30,880 nucleotides of DNA from IMG/VR virus record IMGVR_UViG_648276660_000001; one strand, 5' to 3'. Below the pieces are notes generated by a model. That model had not been told where the DNA came from, did no database searches, and worked only from the letters and a program-made list of their open reading frames with translations. The translations under genes and the position numbers were made by a program. This DNA comes from a virus (taxonomy: Duplodnaviria > Heunggongvirae > Uroviricota > Caudoviricetes). Below are positions 1 through 29,798 of the stretch, piece by piece (the stretch's first letter is position 1; each line of letters begins with the position of its first letter).

Positions 1-117
1 GGCGGTCTTTTCATATCTATTCGTACCTCAAAGGTAATAAAAAACCAAATCTGGTTGATCTTTTTTTTGTGTCAGCACAAAATGACCGTAATCCCAATAC
101 TAATAACAGGGCTTACC

Positions 118-6875: not shown

Positions 6876-6892
6876 ATTACCACAACGGTAAC
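6876..6892. promoter_or_regulatory. Variant copy of the TTACC-N5-GGTAA palindrome (ATTACCacaacGGTAAC) just upstream of the terminase small subunit start
   Basis: Half-sites TTACC and GGTAA separated by 5 nt as in the eight consensus copies, but central flanking bases differ. Confidence 0.35.
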
Positions 6893-6908
6893 AATTACCA
6901 CGGTGGTT

Positions 6909-7505
6909 ATGATGCCTGCTGAACCTAAAACCTATAAACGCAAATCAACGCAATTTAAGCCGCTCACAGCAATGCAGGAGGCTTATTGCCAGTCATACAT
7001 CAAAACGCCTGAAAACCAGACTCAGGCAGCGATTAACGCAGGATTCTCCCCAAATACAGCGGCAGTTAAAGCCAGTGTCATGATGCGCGATGAACGCATT
7101 CAAAAACGGATTGCCGAGTTGATGGAGGAGCGCAACAAACGAATGCGCGTCAGTGCTGATTACGTTCTCATGCGCTTGGTGGAGATCGACCAGATGGACG
7201 TGATCGATATCCTCAACGACGATGGGAGCCTTAAACCAATCCGTGAGTGGCCGAAAATCTGGCGCACTACGCTTAGTGGCTTTGATCTGTCATCGACCAT
7301 CATGAACATGAACGAGGATTCGATAGAGACAATCCTCAAAAAAATTAAATGGCCTGACAAGGTGAAGAACCTAGAACTGATTGGTAAGCATGTTGATGTC
7401 AACGCGTTCAAAGAACGTCTGGATGTTAATGTGAATGTGACAATTGCTGATCGCATAGCAGCAGCCAGGAAGCGACTCAAAGAACGTCAGGATGGTAATC
7501 AGTGA
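6909..7505 (+). CDS. Terminase small subunit
   Basis: Translation contains LTAMQEAYCQSY...TQAAINAGFSPNTAAVKAS...RIQKRI, resembling recalled terminase small-subunit HTH domains; directly precedes the large subunit; start set at ATG 6909 after a GGTGG RBS (ORF is open from 6831). Confidence 0.75.
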   Translation: MMPAEPKTYKRKSTQFKPLTAMQEAYCQSYIKTPENQTQAAINAGFSPNTAAVKASVMMRDERIQKRIAELMEERNKRMRVSADYVLMRLVEIDQMDVIDILNDDGSLKPIREWPKIWRTTLSGFDLSSTIMNMNEDSIETILKKIKWPDKVKNLELIGKHVDVNAFKERLDVNVNVTIADRIAAARKRLKERQDGNQ

Positions 7506-9685: not shown

Positions 9686-9762
9686 TGGCGTGGCATGCAG
9701 GATTCGAACCTGCGACCAACCGCTTAGAAGGCGGTTGCTCTGTCCAACTGAGCTAATGCCAC
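9686..9762 (-). tRNA. tRNA-Arg (anticodon UCU), phage-encoded
   Basis: Minus-strand 77 nt: GTGGCAT-TA-GCTC-AGTTGGACA-GAGC-A-ACCGC-CTTCTAA-GCGGT-TGGTC-GCAGG-TTCGAAT-CCTGC-ATGCCAC-G-CCA; 7-bp acceptor stem, canonical D, anticodon and T arms; anticodon loop CTTCTAA gives TCT; encoded CCA end. Confidence 0.9.
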
Positions 9763-10084: not shown

Positions 10085-10121
10085 TTACCTAAAGGGTAAT
10101 AATTAGCGCGTTAAATGTCAA
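10085..10121 (-). promoter_or_regulatory. Predicted minus-strand sigma70 promoter (perfect -35 TTGACA at 10116..10121, 17-bp spacer, -10 TACCCT at 10093..10098) whose -10 is the half-site of operator palindrome TTACCTaaaGGGTAAT (10085..10100)
   Basis: Read in sequence; directs transcription toward the tRNA and the 139-aa gene. Confidence 0.45.
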
Positions 10122-27344: not shown

Positions 27345-27512
27345 CTATTTGGAGCGAAATGCCGCCTTGAAGTCGCTGAAAGATGTTCCTGTCTGGTAAA
27401 CCATATCCTTGTCGCGCTCTTTGCTTGCGCGGCCAAGCATAACTTTTCCAATGACATCCCAGCATTGCTTGGCTTGTTCATTGTGCTGAGTACGATTTTT
27501 CAACGCTGTCAT
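27345..27512 (-). CDS. Hypothetical small protein (55 aa), first gene of the two-gene operon; absent from the ORF track (below size cut-off)
   Basis: Hand-translated from minus strand: MTALKNRTQHNEQAKQCWDVIGKVMLGRASKERDKDMVYQTGTSFSDFKAAFRSK; AGGAGG RBS 6 nt upstream of ATG 27512; stop TAG at 27345. Confidence 0.55.
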   Translation of the reverse strand: MTALKNRTQHNEQAKQCWDVIGKVMLGRASKERDKDMVYQTGTSFSDFKAAFRSK

Positions 27513-27523
27513 ATCGCGCCTCC

Positions 27524-27567
27524 TTTACCTTTAAGGTAATAGTACGCTATTCACCCACAGTCTGCAA
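27524..27567 (-). promoter_or_regulatory. Predicted minus-strand promoter (-35 TTGCAG at 27562..27567, 17-bp spacer, -10 TACTAT at 27539..27544) with operator palindrome TTTACCTttaAGGTAAT (27524..27540) at the transcription start
   Basis: Read in sequence. Confidence 0.5.
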
Positions 27568-27611: not shown

Positions 27612-28298
27612 TCAGAAGAACCCAGCCTTGTCGTTGATGTACTCCGCGTGGGTCTGGATATCACGCAGGCATTTGCTCACACCAACAATGTAGCAGAACA
27701 TGGTGGTCAGCTCCGCCGCCGCGCCCGATACGTCGTGCCCGTCTTCCTGTAACTGGTTCAGCAGATTCATCAGCAGTGAGTTCTCCGTCAGGCCGAGAAC
27801 ACCAGACGGAGAATGAATCAGGCTGCGGTAGCCGGGCTTCAGTGGGGCACTGTAGGTTTTGTTCTCTATCTTCATTGCCTGCATCACTGCTGATGCTGTG
27901 GCGTTGGCTACCTGGTCGGCAACTATCTTTATGCGTTCTTCCTGCGGGAGCGAGTTTTTAATGTAACTTCCGGTGCGGCGGATCTGAGGAAGAACCTCAC
28001 CTGTAACCCATTTACGAAAGCGGTAGGGGATAGTGCCTGGTGTCACTGCGTCGCGGCAGCGGAGGATCAGTGTGTAGAGGCCTGACTCGTTGATAATATT
28101 GGTTTCACCTTGACGGCCTAAGTTAAATTTAGCCCTTTCATCATCATCAAGAGATTTTATTGACATAGTGGGGTTTGTCAGTTGAAGAGCTTTAATAACG
28201 TCTTTGGCAACAAACCAAGGATTTCCATCAATAACAATGGCTCGAATGGTGGCTTCTGATTCAAAATGAAAAACAGATGGGGTTACGTTAGCAGTCAT
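27612..28298 (-). CDS. Antirepressor (Bro-N N-terminal domain plus Ant/KilA-C-like C-terminal domain)
   Basis: Translation contains FHFESEATIRAIVIDGNPWFVAKDVIKALQL, typical of Bro-N/AntA domains (recalled); ATG 28298 with GGTGA RBS 6 nt upstream (GTG at 28307 is the alternative). Confidence 0.8.
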   Translation of the reverse strand: MTANVTPSVFHFESEATIRAIVIDGNPWFVAKDVIKALQLTNPTMSIKSLDDDERAKFNLGRQGETNIINESGLYTLILRCRDAVTPGTIPYRFRKWVTGEVLPQIRRTGSYIKNSLPQEERIKIVADQVANATASAVMQAMKIENKTYSAPLKPGYRSLIHSPSGVLGLTENSLLMNLLNQLQEDGHDVSGAAAELTTMFCYIVGVSKCLRDIQTHAEYINDKAGFF

Positions 28299-28456
28299 AG
28301 TGATCACCTTTTAGTATGGTTAATCACCACCTGAGGTGCAAATCTCGTTGGTGGTGAGACGTACAGGGTTTGCACTACCGGCTAAAAGGACCCGGCGCAC
28401 CTTTCGGTGCCCCTGCACGTCCCACCATAATTCTGGCATGACTGTGCTATACGCAT

Positions 28457-28478
28457 AAAAAAACCACGTCTGGCGTGG
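28457..28478 (-). terminator. Intrinsic terminator inside the antirepressor leader (CCACG-ccaga-CGTGG followed by TTTTTTT on minus strand)
   Basis: Hairpin plus U7 read in sequence, about 160 nt upstream of the ant start. Confidence 0.5.
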
Positions 28479-28640
28479 TATGCGCCTTTTAGTAATCCGG
28501 GGTGCAAATCCCGGCACTGGATTTTGCCAGTGCCCGATTACTATGGCACAAGAGGAGTGCGATGTAAATTTACCGAAAAGGTAATGATAAGCGCGAAAAA
28601 ACATTAAAATCAACCGTATTTGGTTGATTGCGTTTAACGC

Positions 28641-28678
28641 TTGATCACCTGAAAGCAAGATATTACCTTTAAGGTAAT
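28641..28678 (+). promoter_or_regulatory. Predicted plus-strand promoter (-35 TTGATC 28641..28646, -10 TACCTT 28664..28669) overlapped by operator palindrome ATTACCTttaAGGTAAT (28662..28678)
   Basis: Read in sequence; drives the gene starting at 28698. Confidence 0.45.
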
Positions 28679-28697
28679 GTTATTGTGAGGAAAAGCA

Positions 28698-29426
28698 ATG
28701 GAAGTTTTCTGGATAGTTGTTGGTGTGGTTGCGGTGATTATTTACGTTATCAACCAGAACAAGACTAAGATCTCTGATCGTACGGTCGTTAATCAGAACA
28801 AAACGATAAAGACCGAAGATGGGGAGATAACGATTAATCGTACACAGGTGATAGAGCACACATCTACTCAGTTTCAAAAAACTGGAGGTAACGCGCCTGA
28901 TATTTCCGTACCTCCTGCTTATGATAGTGCGGTAATCCAGACATATTATAAACAGCAGGAGTTAGCAAAAGAGAGGCAACTGATTCAGCCAAAGCCGTTT
29001 ACAGCTGAGCTTCCACCTGGAGTGTCAACGCGTCCGGCATATCATGGAAGATTCCCTGGTGATGACATATCGTCTCAGTCATTTAAAAAAGCACCTCAGG
29101 CAGTATCAGAGCCAGCAAGAATATCTTCTGTATCGCCGCCAAAAGAAGAATCAGCTAACAGAGTTTCAAGCGGTAGCAAGCAGTGCTTGCGATGCAGAAT
29201 AAACCTTCCATATGAAAAATTCAGGAAATCGTCAAAAAATCCGGATGGATTGACTAAGTGGTGTGCAAGGTGTCTCGATGGCCCAAAGAATACACGTCAT
29301 ATGAAGTGGTGCCCAATTTGTAATGTCCGCAGAAAACGAACCAGCTTTTACCCTAATAATCAAAATGCGGACGGCTTAATGGCATGGTGCAAAACGTGCT
29401 GGGACGAGCACAAAGCGAAACGATAG
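28698..29426 (+). CDS. Membrane-anchored protein with C-terminal repeated zinc-ribbon motifs (cargo gene)
   Basis: GAGG RBS; N-terminal hydrophobic helix MEVFWIVVGVVAVIIYVI; C-terminus has four CxxC pairs, two in near-identical context (PDGLTKWCARCLD and ADGLMAWCKTCWD); followed by a terminator. Confidence 0.7.
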   Translation: MEVFWIVVGVVAVIIYVINQNKTKISDRTVVNQNKTIKTEDGEITINRTQVIEHTSTQFQKTGGNAPDISVPPAYDSAVIQTYYKQQELAKERQLIQPKPFTAELPPGVSTRPAYHGRFPGDDISSQSFKKAPQAVSEPARISSVSPPKEESANRVSSGSKQCLRCRINLPYEKFRKSSKNPDGLTKWCARCLDGPKNTRHMKWCPICNVRRKRTSFYPNNQNADGLMAWCKTCWDEHKAKR

Positions 29427-29428
29427 GC

Positions 29429-29452
29429 CGCTCTTGCGGCCTTTAAATTTAC
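29429..29452. terminator. Bidirectional intrinsic terminator (GGCCGC-tcttg-GCGGCC then TTTAAATTT)
   Basis: Read in sequence between convergent genes. Confidence 0.6.
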
Positions 29453-29706
29453 CGGGTTTGTTTTCGTAATTGTTCGGCACAATAGTCGAGATGTGTTTGC
29501 AGATCCTGCATAGACATCTGTGAGCTGGTGACGTAGTTAATCAGTGCAGTCAGTTCGGCAAGTGGGCCATCGACATTAAATCCATCCTTATCGAGATCCC
29601 GGAGTAATTTCATCAAGTGCGATCCCTCCACCAGTGACCTGACGCCTCCCGGCGTGTGAATCCTTTCGGTAAATCCGTCTTCCAGTGGATAGTGATACTG
29701 CTGCAT
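29449..29706 (-). CDS. Small Ant C-terminal-domain-only protein (about 85 aa), candidate SOS-inducible antirepressor
   Basis: Translation from MQQYHYPLEDGF... is homologous to the C-terminal third of the 228-aa antirepressor at 27612..28298 (shared SLL.NLL..L...G..V.G..AELT..F.Y); GGAG RBS 8 nt upstream of ATG 29706; LexA box 22 nt upstream; ORF track shows a longer version without RBS. Confidence 0.6.
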   Translation of the reverse strand: MQQYHYPLEDGFTERIHTPGGVRSLVEGSHLMKLLRDLDKDGFNVDGPLAELTALINYVTSSQMSMQDLQTHLDYCAEQLRKQTR

Positions 29707-29727
29707 CTTATCTTCTCCATGCAATAA

Positions 29728-29781: not shown

Positions 29782-29798
29782 ATTACCTGAAAGGTAAT
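29782..29798. promoter_or_regulatory. Operator palindrome ATTACCTgaaAGGTAAT adjacent to a TTGCAA -35-like hexamer of the SOS-box promoter
   Basis: Read in sequence. Confidence 0.5.

What the first reader, a model, noticed from the sequence alone, without database searches (positions are those of the whole stretch)
28299..28697. Structured 400-bp leader with internal terminator and duplicated hairpin motif upstream of the antirepressor: possible immI-like RNA control
Seen in sequence: no RBS-supported ORF; two copies of a CTTTTAGTA...GGTGCAAATC unit, each presenting GTGCAAAT in a hairpin loop; an 8-bp perfect hairpin GGCACTGG/CCAGTGCC; a minus-strand intrinsic terminator (hairpin plus U7) about 160 nt upstream of the ant start codon; divergent operator-containing promoters on both flanks. 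By analogy with P22 immI, where antirepressor synthesis is tightly controlled including by an antisense RNA, this could be a transcription attenuator or small RNA gating antirepressor expression. The duplicated unit could instead be the relic of a duplicated RBS region.
Basis: partly seen in the sequence, partly recalled or inferred. Interest (0 to 1): 0.6.

Follow-up and report, generated by a model that had tools for sequence, protein, structure and literature searches.

The report
P1-type C4/IsrK antisense control of antirepressor
The "structured leader" is a textbook-type phage RNA switch, an IsrK-like small RNA followed by a C4 antisense RNA that masks the ribosome-binding site of the antirepressor gene, so it is a real but already known kind of element that is simply unannotated in this E. 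coli prophage.

Summary

They are not a P22 sar-like system. On the minus strand the region holds a complete P1/P7-type immI module:
- a promoter (-35 at 28568-28563, -10 at 28545-28540);
- an IsrK-like 77-nt RNA (28533-28457) that carries target boxes a1 and b1 and ends in the intrinsic terminator;
- target boxes a2 (28342-28336) and b2 (28314-28307), with b2 overlapping the Shine-Dalgarno sequence of a Bro-N antirepressor gene (ATG at 28298).

Rfam scores are above the curated cut-offs: C4 77.8 bits against 45, isrK 67.4 against 50.

Both are complementary to the two exposed segments of C4. Across 20 phages, including P1, the a' segment has 11 different sequences. Its exact complement is present at a2 in 20 of 20 and at a1 in 19 of 20, with no match between phages that carry different alleles.

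The same layout occurs in Gifsy-1, where IsrK was studied experimentally, and it is already annotated in APSE phages.

Verdict: a new, unannotated member of a known kind, of low to moderate interest. The only twist is an a-box allele that differs from the closest Uetakevirus relatives.

The parts
28663..28677 (.). Operator-like palindrome TTACCTTTAAGGTAA, 21 bp upstream of the divergent plus-strand ORF 28698-29426
   Evidence: one of 8 exact (10 with 1 mismatch) TTACC-N5-GGTAA sites in the window, against 0.5 expected. The protein that binds it is not identified.
28570..28584 (.). Operator-like palindrome TTACCGAAAAGGTAA that abuts the -35 of the leader promoter. Its centre is about -44 from the inferred transcription start.
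   Evidence: present at the same place in the Uetakevirus relatives TL-2011b, Tyrion, Kp4865 and KpOXA245, with varying central bases. Its role (repression or activation) was not tested.
28540..28568 (-). Sigma-70-type promoter: TTTACA (28568-28563), 17-bp spacer, TG-extended CATAGT (28545-28540). The inferred start is near 28533.
   Evidence: 9 of 12 matches with the TG extension; a -35/-10 pair lies at the same distance from the isrK 5' end in all 20 phages and corresponds in position to the annotated P1 promoter P1c4 (P51b). The start site is inferred, not mapped.
28457..28533 (-). IsrK-family small RNA (the a1b1 element). It comprises hairpin 1 (28533-28514), the a1 hairpin (28513-28496), a single-stranded b1 box and an intrinsic terminator.
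   Evidence: RF01394, 67.4 bits (cut-off 50), full length. RF03163 c4-a1b1 scores 38 bits, below its cut-off of 46.7, at 28546-28494; 6 of 10 hairpin pairs show compensatory changes; z = -2.3.
28502..28508 (-). a1 box UUUGCAC, in the 8-nt loop of the second IsrK hairpin; complementary to a' of C4
   Evidence: Predicted 98% unpaired.
28485..28492 (-). b1 box CUAAAAGG; complementary to b' of C4
28456..28479 (-). Intrinsic terminator: ACCACG-CCAGA-CGUGGU followed by U7
   Evidence: A terminator hairpin plus U-run is conserved in all 20 phages. Read-through was shown for the Gifsy-1 homologue (PMC4825925) and is inferred here.
28347..28432 (-). C4 antisense RNA (Rfam extent). By alignment with the annotated 77-nt P1 C4, the mature RNA is predicted at 28426-28350 and is followed by an ACCA-like 3' tail.
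   Evidence: RF01695, 77.8 bits (cut-off 45), model positions 1-87; 27 pairs, 14 with compensatory changes.: -48.5 kcal/mol, z = -6.0. Processing is inferred from P1.
28382..28389 (-). b' box CCUUUUAG, in the loop of the second internal hairpin of C4
28369..28375 (-). a' box GUGCAAA, in the single-stranded junction between hairpin 2 and the closing stem of C4
   Evidence: fixed structural position after CCGGUA. Predicted 99% unpaired.
28336..28342 (-). a2 box UUUGCAC, 4 nt after the Rfam extent of C4 (7 nt after the predicted mature 3' end)
28324..28331 (-). Conserved GGUGGUGA element between a2 and b2. It can pair with the 3' strand (UCACCACC) of the C4 closing stem.
   Evidence: a helix of at least 7 bp is possible in 18 of 20 phages, with some co-variation. 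Nearly invariant. Role unknown.
28307..28314 (-). b2 box CUAAAAGG, overlapping the ant Shine-Dalgarno AAGGUGA (28310-28304); the ATG is at 28298-28296
   Evidence: It occupies the position of the P1 b2 site, which overlaps the icd RBS.
28320..28439 (-). Candidate 39-codon upstream ORF that runs through C4 and a2 and stops 22 nt before the ant ATG (possible counterpart of Gifsy-1 orf45)
   Evidence: an ORF spanning C4 exists in only 13 of 20 phages, in differing frames, and this one has no clear Shine-Dalgarno. Weak evidence.
27612..28298 (-). Regulated gene: a 228-aa Bro-N domain protein (putative antirepressor)
   Evidence: PF02498, E = 5e-20. RefSeq annotates a BRO-N domain-containing protein. 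A positional counterpart in the Uetakevirus ZX5 promotes lytic growth when overexpressed (PMC9782041).

Best explanation
This is a P1/P7-type immI RNA switch controlling a Bro-N antirepressor in a Uetakevirus (phiV10/TL-2011b-like) prophage of E. coli.

Proposed sequence of events:
1. Transcription starts near 28533 on the minus strand, from a promoter whose -35 abuts a TTACC-N5-GGTAA operator.
2. Most transcripts stop at the intrinsic terminator. This gives a 77-nt IsrK-like RNA that displays the a1 and b1 boxes.
3. Read-through transcripts carry C4 and the ant mRNA.
4. C4 is probably cut out as a 77-nt RNA, as in P1. It exposes two segments, b' (CCUUUUAG) and a' (GUGCAAA).
5. These pair with b2 and a2 just upstream of ant. 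Because b2 overlaps the Shine-Dalgarno, ant translation is blocked and the prophage repressor stays active.
6. The IsrK-like RNA carries the same two boxes. It competes for C4, or for the C4 part of the read-through transcript. The balance of short RNA, C4 and mRNA then decides whether the antirepressor is made.

Shown here: family membership, the fold, the complementarity and its co-variation, and the conserved promoter and terminator. Inferred from P1 and Gifsy-1: processing, the direction of regulation, and the decoy role of the short RNA.
For: - Rfam hits are above the curated cut-offs: C4 77.8 bits against 45 and isrK 67.4 against 50, both full length and on the ant strand.
- Both target boxes occur exactly twice, in the same order, flanking C4. 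None is expected by chance.
- The layout matches the annotated P1 immI feature for feature: promoter P51b, a1 (7 nt), b1 (8 nt), a 77-nt C4, a2 (7 nt), b2 (8 nt) at an RBS.
- All 19 other phages examined have isrK followed about 24 nt later by C4. P1's upstream a1b1 element was taken from its annotation rather than scanned with the isrK model.
- The a' segment has 11 alleles among the 20 phages. Its complement is at a2 in 20 of 20 and at a1 in 19 of 20. None of 356 cross-phage comparisons between different alleles matches. b' co-varies in the same way.
- The C4 structure has 14 of 27 pairs with compensatory changes; z = -6.
- Compared with TL-2011b, the promoter and operator region is 94.5% identical. 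The substitutions include a coordinated replacement of all three a-type boxes, alongside changes in the C4 stem, the terminator, the spacer and the start of ant.
- Gifsy-1 has the same isrK, C4 and antirepressor order. The pairs proven there by compensatory mutation (G28-C162, G31-C159) fall in a1 and a'.
- The regulated gene has a Bro-N domain.
- a' and a1 are predicted to be about 98% unpaired.
Against: - There are no expression data for this prophage. The transcription start, terminator efficiency, C4 processing and the sign of regulation are all inferred.
- There is no icd-like ORF between b2 and ant as in P1, so the P1 step of translation-coupled, Rho-dependent termination need not apply.
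- The Gifsy-1 study explains activation by cis/trans refolding and an upstream ORF, not by a trans-acting processed C4. The two published models are not reconciled.
- The upstream ORF here is poorly conserved and ends 22 nt before ant instead of overlapping its start codon.
- b2 is predicted to be largely buried in a local hairpin even without C4 (0.2% unpaired).
- The c4-a1b1 model scores below its cut-off (38 against 46.7).
Confidence: 0.85

Rival explanations
1. A purely cis-acting structural switch of the Gifsy-1 IsrK type. The read-through transcript folds so that a1 pairs with a' in cis and is translationally silent. The only trans-acting RNA is the short IsrK-like species, which opens that fold and activates translation of an upstream ORF and, by coupling, of ant. 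C4 is never released as a repressor.
For: In Gifsy-1 the a1:a' pairs were shown by compensatory mutations to hold the long transcript inactive, and short IsrK activates it. The window has the same layout. It also has a 39-codon ORF through C4.
Against: The predicted minimum-energy fold of the window's whole leader keeps the IsrK hairpins and C4 as separate modules, with no a1:a' pairing in cis. The a2 and b2 boxes are conserved and co-vary with C4 in 20 of 20 phages, which this model does not require. An ORF spanning C4 is absent in 7 of 20 phages. A stable processed RNA downstream of IsrK (STnc1160) exists even in Salmonella, and P1 C4 acts in trans (P1 literature; record annotation).
Confidence: 0.1
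2. A P22 immI-like system, in which a cis-encoded antisense RNA (sar-type) transcribed from the opposite strand across the ant ribosome-binding site limits antirepressor synthesis.
For: The genomic position resembles P22 immI: an antirepressor gene next to the tail-spike or fibre gene of a short-tailed temperate phage, with palindromic operators nearby.
Against: No promoter-like site on the plus strand reads across 28299-28350. No sar family match appears even at E<=1. The neighbouring small proteins match no Pfam family above its cut-off, Arc/Mnt-type families included. Every structured element matches families on the same strand as ant.
Confidence: 0.02
3. The repeated unit is a relic of a duplicated ribosome-binding region, and the hairpins are incidental. 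Alternatively, the terminator is a classical leader attenuator with no trans-acting RNA.
For: Both copies contain a Shine-Dalgarno-like AAAGG, and a terminator lies between them.
Against: Both copies keep exact complementarity to C4 while their sequence changes from phage to phage (11 a alleles). A decaying duplication would not do this. No anti-terminator alternative and no leader peptide was found. The unit plus terminator is a curated sRNA family.
Confidence: 0.03

Closest known systems
immI operon of phages P1 and P7: C4 antisense RNA, Rfam RF01695 (Citron & Schuster 1990, 1992; Biere et al. 1992; cited from my own knowledge and from the reference lists seen)
   Same: - The order on one strand is identical: constitutive-type promoter, a1, b1, terminator-like hairpin, a C4 of about 77 nt, a2, b2 at an RBS, then the antirepressor operon.
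- The box lengths are the same (7 and 8 nt).
- The C4 fold is the same.
- An operator lies next to the promoter (Oc4/Op51 for C1 in P1; TTACC-N5-GGTAA here).
- Specificity resides in the box sequences.
   Different: - The b2 box overlaps the Shine-Dalgarno of the antirepressor gene itself. There is no icd gene in between, so repression is probably direct rather than through translation-coupled, Rho-dependent termination.
- The antirepressor is a single Bro-N protein, not Ant1/Ant2.
- The host phage is a short-tailed, integrating Uetakevirus, not a plasmid prophage.
- The box sequences differ: GUGCAAA/CCUUUUAG here against CUGUCAA/UCACUAAC in P1.
IsrK locus of Salmonella prophage Gifsy-1, Rfam RF01394 (Hershko-Shalev et al. 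2016, PMC4825925)
   Same: - The 77-nt sRNA has the same three hairpins and terminator, and is followed by a C4-family element and an antirepressor gene.
- The experimentally proven pairs correspond to a1:a'.
   Different: - Gifsy-1 has a 45-codon upstream ORF whose stop overlaps the anrP start (AUGA). Here the 39-codon ORF is in another frame and ends 22 nt upstream.
- No isrJ lies downstream.
- The box alleles differ. Gifsy-1 a' is ACGCCAA, the allele of phiV10 and TL-2011b, not that of this window.
APSE phages of Hamiltonella defensa (Rouil et al. 2020, PMC7313666; record LR794147)
   Same: A C4-family sRNA and an isrK-family sRNA are annotated immediately upstream of a Bro-N gene, with a'/b' matching the upstream region of that gene. 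This is the same architecture as here.
   Different: The phage lineage and box alleles differ (GUCUCAA/CCUUGUUAG). About 74% identity over the module.
P4 immunity: CI RNA with seqA and seqC (cited in PMC4825925)
   Same: A processed small RNA cut from an untranslated leader pairs with two complementary sites, one upstream and one downstream of itself on the same transcript.
   Different: In P4 the outcome is premature transcription termination of replication genes, not masking of an antirepressor RBS. No sequence or model match was tested or found here.
P22 immI sar RNA
   Same: An RNA limits antirepressor translation by covering its ribosome-binding site.
   Different: sar is transcribed from the opposite strand of its target. 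Here the regulator is encoded on the same strand, upstream of its target, and acts through two short boxes. No sar match.

Membership tests
C4 antisense RNA / P1-P7 immI module | Covariance-model match at or above Rfam's curated score | tested here: met
   RF01695 scores 77.8 bits against a cut-off of 45, model positions 1-87 of 87, at 28432-28347 on the minus strand.
C4 antisense RNA / P1-P7 immI module | Long closing stem that encloses two hairpins, supported by compensatory changes | tested here: met
   27 consensus pairs, 14 with changes on both sides, and the window sequence forms all of them. The minimum-energy fold is the same; z = -6.
C4 antisense RNA / P1-P7 immI module | Two exposed segments (a', b') complementary to sites a2 and b2 just downstream, with b2 at a ribosome-binding site | tested here: met
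   GUGCAAA pairs with UUUGCAC (28342-28336). CCUUUUAG pairs with CUAAAAGG (28314-28307), which overlaps the Shine-Dalgarno AAGGUGA 9 nt before the ATG. Co-variation holds in 20 of 20 phages.
C4 antisense RNA / P1-P7 immI module | A second copy of the targets (a1, b1) upstream of C4 on the same transcript | tested here: met
   The boxes lie at 28508-28502 and 28492-28485. The a1 complement is present in 19 of 20 phages. The c4-a1b1 model itself scores only 38 bits against a cut-off of 46.7.
C4 antisense RNA / P1-P7 immI module | Co-transcription with an antirepressor gene from a promoter upstream of a1 | tested here: inconclusive
   A promoter-like site is conserved in all 20 phages at the position of P1 P51b, and the downstream gene has a Bro-N domain. 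No transcript data exist. Antirepressor activity is known only for a relative.
C4 antisense RNA / P1-P7 immI module | An icd-type ORF between b2 and ant whose translation is needed for ant transcription | tested here: not met
   The b2 box is followed directly by the ant start codon, with no intervening ORF. This feature belongs to P1/P7 specifically, not to the Rfam family.
C4 antisense RNA / P1-P7 immI module | Release of mature C4 by processing (RNase P at the 5' end) | not testable with these tools
   Only the sequence correlate is visible: an acceptor-like stem followed by ACCA at 28352-28349, aligned with the annotated ends of P1 C4.
IsrK sRNA (Gifsy-1 type) | Covariance-model match at or above the curated score, with three hairpins that include an intrinsic terminator | tested here: met
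   RF01394 scores 67.4 bits against a cut-off of 50, model positions 1-77 of 77. Terminator. Compensatory changes in 6 of 10 pairs.
IsrK sRNA (Gifsy-1 type) | Located upstream of an antirepressor gene, with a region complementary to the middle of IsrK in between | tested here: met
   The order is the same as in Gifsy-1, where the intervening region is itself a C4 match of 69 bits.
IsrK sRNA (Gifsy-1 type) | An upstream ORF (orf45) translationally coupled to the antirepressor, with its stop overlapping the start | tested here: not met
   The 39-codon ORF 28439-28320 ends 22 nt before the ATG. An ORF through C4 is present in only 13 of 20 relatives.
IsrK sRNA (Gifsy-1 type) | Hfq binding, and activation of the long transcript in trans | not testable with these tools
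   Requires experiments.
P22 immI (sar, arc, mnt) | Antisense RNA transcribed from the strand opposite the ant ribosome-binding site | tested here: not met
   No plus-strand promoter-like site near 28250-28350. No sar family match at E<=1.
P22 immI (sar, arc, mnt) | Arc/Mnt ribbon-helix-helix repressors flanking ant | tested here: not met
   The small neighbouring ORFs match no Pfam family above its cut-off; only weak, sub-cut-off matches were listed.

The most novel reading that the evidence does not exclude
The module may be a three-RNA immunity circuit in which the abundant terminated IsrK-like RNA is a dedicated sponge for C4. On this reading the a and b boxes are independently exchangeable specificity alleles.

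- This prophage differs from its closest relatives (phiV10, TL-2011b) in the a box only: all three copies are changed and b is unchanged.
- It shares its a allele with unrelated lambdoid Stx phages, while phiV10 shares its a allele with Gifsy-1.

That would predict a network of cross-talk, or of insulation, between antirepressor switches of unrelated co-resident prophages, set by one 7-nt box.
Probability: 0.35. Interest if true: 0.45.

Novelty: new member of a known kind. Interest (0 to 1): 0.25.

Why it matters
For annotation, the intergenic region carries no ncRNA annotation in the RefSeq record examined (E. coli MS 198-1) or in the deposited Uetakevirus records examined. It in fact encodes two curated sRNA families that probably decide when the antirepressor is made, and hence when the prophage induces.

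Related modules occur in about 10% of complete E. coli genomes (531 of 5426) and in many Stx-converting phages.

Conceptually it adds little. The design has been known from P1/P7 since 1990, from Gifsy-1 since 2016 and from APSE since 2020.

The useful by-products are:
- clear evidence that IsrK is the a1b1 element of a C4-type module;
- evidence that the a and b boxes behave as swappable specificity alleles, which could be tested as a source of prophage cross-talk or heteroimmunity.

Tried and rejected
- P22 sar-type antisense RNA: no family match, no plus-strand promoter and no Arc/Mnt-like neighbours. Rejected.
- Relic RBS duplication: rejected by three-way co-variation.
- A coding explanation for the leader: the 112-aa mechanical ORF 28320-28658 and the 39-codon ORF have no Pfam match. 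ORFs through C4 are present in only 13 of 20 relatives, in different frames. Coding is therefore not the conserved feature.
- MAFFT alignment of the whole module: it did not keep the variable boxes in register, so I did not use the count of structure pairs for the intermolecular pairs. I used an anchored self-versus-cross comparison instead.
- RNAduplex on whole RNAs: it opens internal structure at no cost and is uninformative. It was replaced by box-level complementarity and opening energies.
- Attempts to read the primary P1 papers (PMC312442, PMC196329) failed because they are not held. P1 facts rest on the GenBank annotation, on secondary citations and on my own knowledge.
- One literature search returned mostly noise.
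- I did not identify the protein that binds the TTACC-N5-GGTAA palindromes. No repressor gene was found in the window, which begins in the replication region.

Full report
**What is in the sequence.**

The finding lies between a minus-strand gene for a 228-aa Bro-N domain protein (27612-28298; Pfam PF02498, E = 5e-20) and a plus-strand ORF (28698-29426).
- The two copies of CTTTTAGTA and of GGTGCAAATC are present.
- So is the 8-bp hairpin GGCACTGG/CCAGTGCC.
- So is a minus-strand terminator (stem 28479-28463, then T7) that ends 158 nt before the ant ATG.
- Read on the transcribed strand, the repeat is UUUGCAC, a spacer, then CUAAAAGG. This composite occurs exactly twice in the window and never in 100 shuffles.

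**What it is.**

A scan of the region against Rfam gave two full-length matches above the curated cut-offs, both on the minus strand (repeated on the whole window).
- C4 antisense RNA (RF01695) at 28432-28347: 77.8 bits against a cut-off of 45.
- isrK (RF01394) at 28533-28457: 67.4 bits against a cut-off of 50.
- A sub-threshold match to c4-a1b1, the 'a1, b1 targets of C4' (38 bits against 46.7).

It lies between the two repeat copies and is by far the most stable structure here (-48.5 kcal/mol for the predicted 77-nt mature form, z = -6.0).

C4 exposes two segments.
- CCUUUUAG (28389-28382) lies in the loop of its second internal hairpin.
- GUGCAAA (28375-28369) lies in the junction before the closing stem.

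The downstream copy (a2 at 28342-28336, b2 at 28314-28307) ends on the Shine-Dalgarno AAGGUGA of ant. The upstream copy (a1 at 28508-28502, b1 at 28492-28485) lies inside the IsrK-like RNA, with a1 in an 8-nt hairpin loop.

**Comparison with P1.**

The GenBank record of phage P1 annotates the following in order: promoter P1c4 (P51b), a1 (7 nt), b1 (8 nt), the 77-nt C4 RNA, a2 (7 nt), b2 (8 nt) at the icd ribosome-binding site, then icd and ant (sequence).
- The window has the same order, the same box lengths and the same C4 length.
- A promoter-like site (TTTACA, 17 bp, TG-extended CATAGT) sits at the position of P51b relative to the first hairpin.
- The difference is that here b2 is followed directly by the antirepressor gene. 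There is no icd.

**Conservation and co-variation.**

The window is a Uetakevirus (phiV10/TL-2011b-like) prophage.
- It is 100% identical over the queried 405-bp region to a region of the E. coli MS 198-1 chromosome, where RefSeq annotates no RNA gene.
- Related leaders occur in 187 phage records and in 531 of 5426 complete E. coli genomes.

I collected the module from 19 other phages. These were Uetakeviruses of E. coli, Enterobacter and Klebsiella; lambdoid Stx phages; mEp460; P88; ST64B-like F1055; APSE-7; Yersinia, Actinobacillus and Vibrio phages; and P1.
- All 18 that were scanned with the Rfam models have isrK followed by C4 on one strand, 23-58 nt apart (24-25 nt in most). For P1 the upstream a1b1 element and C4 were taken from the record's annotation.
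- C4 has 27 consensus pairs, 14 with changes on both sides.
- The two IsrK hairpins have 6 of 10 such pairs.

The decisive test concerns the intermolecular pairs.
- The 7-nt a' segment sits at a fixed structural position (after CCGGUA).
- It takes 11 different sequences among the 20 phages.
- Its exact reverse complement is present at a2 in 20 of 20 and in the IsrK loop (a1) in 19 of 20.
- None of the 356 comparisons between phages with different a' sequences gives a match.
- b' behaves in the same way.

A relic duplication or a chance hairpin cannot produce this.

**A local allele switch.**

Against its closest sequenced relative, TL-2011b, the divergent promoter and operator region is 94.5% identical, while the module itself is only 71-87% identical by segment.
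- The substitutions include a coordinated replacement of all three a-type boxes: UUUGCAC/GUGCAAA here against UUGGCGU/ACGCCAA there. The b boxes are identical.
- Other substitutions lie in the C4 closing stem, the terminator stem, the spacer and the start of ant.
- The window's a allele is shared with lambdoid Stx2_14744 and PhiR12. The phiV10/TL-2011b allele is shared with Gifsy-1.

This resembles the P1/P7 situation, where C4 specificity underlies heteroimmunity (own knowledge; also stated in PMC12197685).

**Link to IsrK.**

In Gifsy-1 itself, isrK (34316-34240) is followed by a C4 match (69 bits, 34214-34131) and then by the antirepressor gene anrP.
- Numbering from the isrK 5' end reproduces the paper's AUGs at nt 107 and 119.
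- It also places the pairs proven there by compensatory mutation (G28-C162 and G31-C159) inside a1 and a'.

So the experimentally studied 'IsrK binds orf45' interaction is the a1:a' interaction of a C4-type module. The stable RNA STnc1160 downstream of IsrK is in all likelihood the C4 equivalent.

The APSE genome paper had already annotated a C4-family and an isrK-family sRNA upstream of a Bro-N gene, with a'/b' matching that gene's upstream region. The architecture found here is therefore described in the literature.

**Most likely mechanism.**

The steps below are marked as shown here or inferred.
1. Shown: a conserved promoter, an IsrK-family RNA with a terminator, a C4-family RNA, and complementary, co-varying target boxes with b2 on the ant Shine-Dalgarno.
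2. Inferred from Gifsy-1: most transcripts end at the terminator and some read through.
3. Inferred from P1: C4 is cut out of the read-through transcript. The window keeps the acceptor-like stem and an ACCA tail at the position of the annotated P1 ends. C4 then pairs with a2 and b2 to block ant translation, which keeps the prophage repressor active.
4. Inferred: the short RNA carries the same boxes in at least as accessible a form, and so competes for C4 and relieves repression. Predicted unpaired probabilities are a1 0.98 and b1 0.41, against a2 0.41 and b2 0.002.
5. Open: the operator-like palindrome abutting the -35 (centre near -44) probably ties the promoter to a phage DNA-binding protein. 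Whether it represses or activates was not tested.

**Rivals.**

- A purely cis-acting refolding switch with an upstream ORF (the published Gifsy-1 model) remains possible as the main mode. It does not explain the universal co-variation of a2/b2. It also sits poorly with the lack of a conserved ORF through C4: 13 of 20 phages, varying frames, and here 39 codons ending 22 nt before ant.
- A P22 sar-type antisense RNA is not supported.
- A relic duplication or a plain attenuator is not supported either.

**Verdict.**

This is a new, unannotated member of a known kind, of low to moderate interest.

Noticed in passing
window 23-37, 1951-1965, 2013-2027, 6877-6891, 6895-6909, 10085-10099, 27525-27539, 28570-28584, 28663-28677, 29783-29797: The palindrome TTACC-N5-GGTAA occurs 8 times exactly and 10 times with one mismatch, against 0.5 expected. 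The sites I checked lie between ORFs, just upstream of gene starts (the replication genes, a DUF1064 gene and four sites in the antirepressor region). Among the fetched loci it is found only in Uetakevirus relatives and in the host record identical to the window. It looks like the operator of one phage regulator with many dispersed sites, as with C1 of P1. The binding protein was not identified.
   Followed up: partly
window 29449-29709 (minus strand): An 86-aa ORF is 40% identical (E = 9e-20) to the C-terminal third of the Bro-N antirepressor (residues 147-224). It has its own TTACC-N5-GGTAA site upstream (29783-29797). This is a free-standing copy of the antirepressor's C-terminal domain. 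It is homologous to epsilon15 gp19 and phiV10 gp24, and its function is unknown.
   Followed up: partly
window 28324-28331 (minus strand) and the same position in 18 of 20 related loci: A nearly invariant GGUGGUGA between a2 and b2 can pair with the 3' strand (UCACCACC) of the C4 closing stem. Co-variation is seen in a few phages (for example GGUGGCGA with UCGCCACC in Actinobacillus phage pPE4). This would be an alternative to the C4 fold in unprocessed transcripts and would present a2 in a hairpin loop. Its role is unknown.
   Followed up: partly
L005 806-1639, L007 617-1639, L010 597-1748, L012 583-1740, L021 831-1490: In several lambdoid phage records the antirepressor or 'regulatory protein' CDS is annotated as starting well upstream of the ATG that follows the b2 box, so that the CDS covers the whole C4 RNA and the IsrK-like element. 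These N-terminal extensions are probably annotation artefacts. An ORF starting at the conserved ATG of UUAUGGUGGG inside C4 is in frame with the real start in these phages.
   Followed up: partly
window 9686-9762 (minus strand): A tRNA-Arg (anticodon UCU) gene lies in the phage early-to-late junction region. It was found by both ARAGORN and Rfam.
   Followed up: no
window 28608-28629: An AT-rich 8-bp inverted repeat (AATCAACC-N6-GGTTGATT) lies between the two operator palindromes of the divergent control region. The scan flagged it as terminator-like on the minus strand, but it lies upstream of the leader promoter. It is mostly conserved in TL-2011b. It may be a protein-binding site.
   Followed up: no
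window 28698-29426 (plus strand): The divergently transcribed 242-aa ORF has a hydrophobic N-terminus and a Cys-rich C-terminal part (CxxC pairs; a weak, sub-threshold Stc1 match). In TL-2011b the corresponding region is annotated only as a misc_feature 'similar to hypothetical protein', and in phiV10-type phages most of it is missing.
   Followed up: no
window 27345-27512 (minus strand): A 55-aa ORF lies just downstream of ant. A TTACC-N5-GGTAA site sits between its putative -10 and its strong Shine-Dalgarno (AGGAGG). It has no Pfam match. It is a candidate small regulator of the region.
   Followed up: no
L006 630-713 (Escherichia phage GER2): An sRNA-Xcc1 family match (75.7 bits against a cut-off of 53) lies about 500 bp downstream of the C4/isrK module. 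The APSE paper also reports this family in some APSE phages.
   Followed up: no
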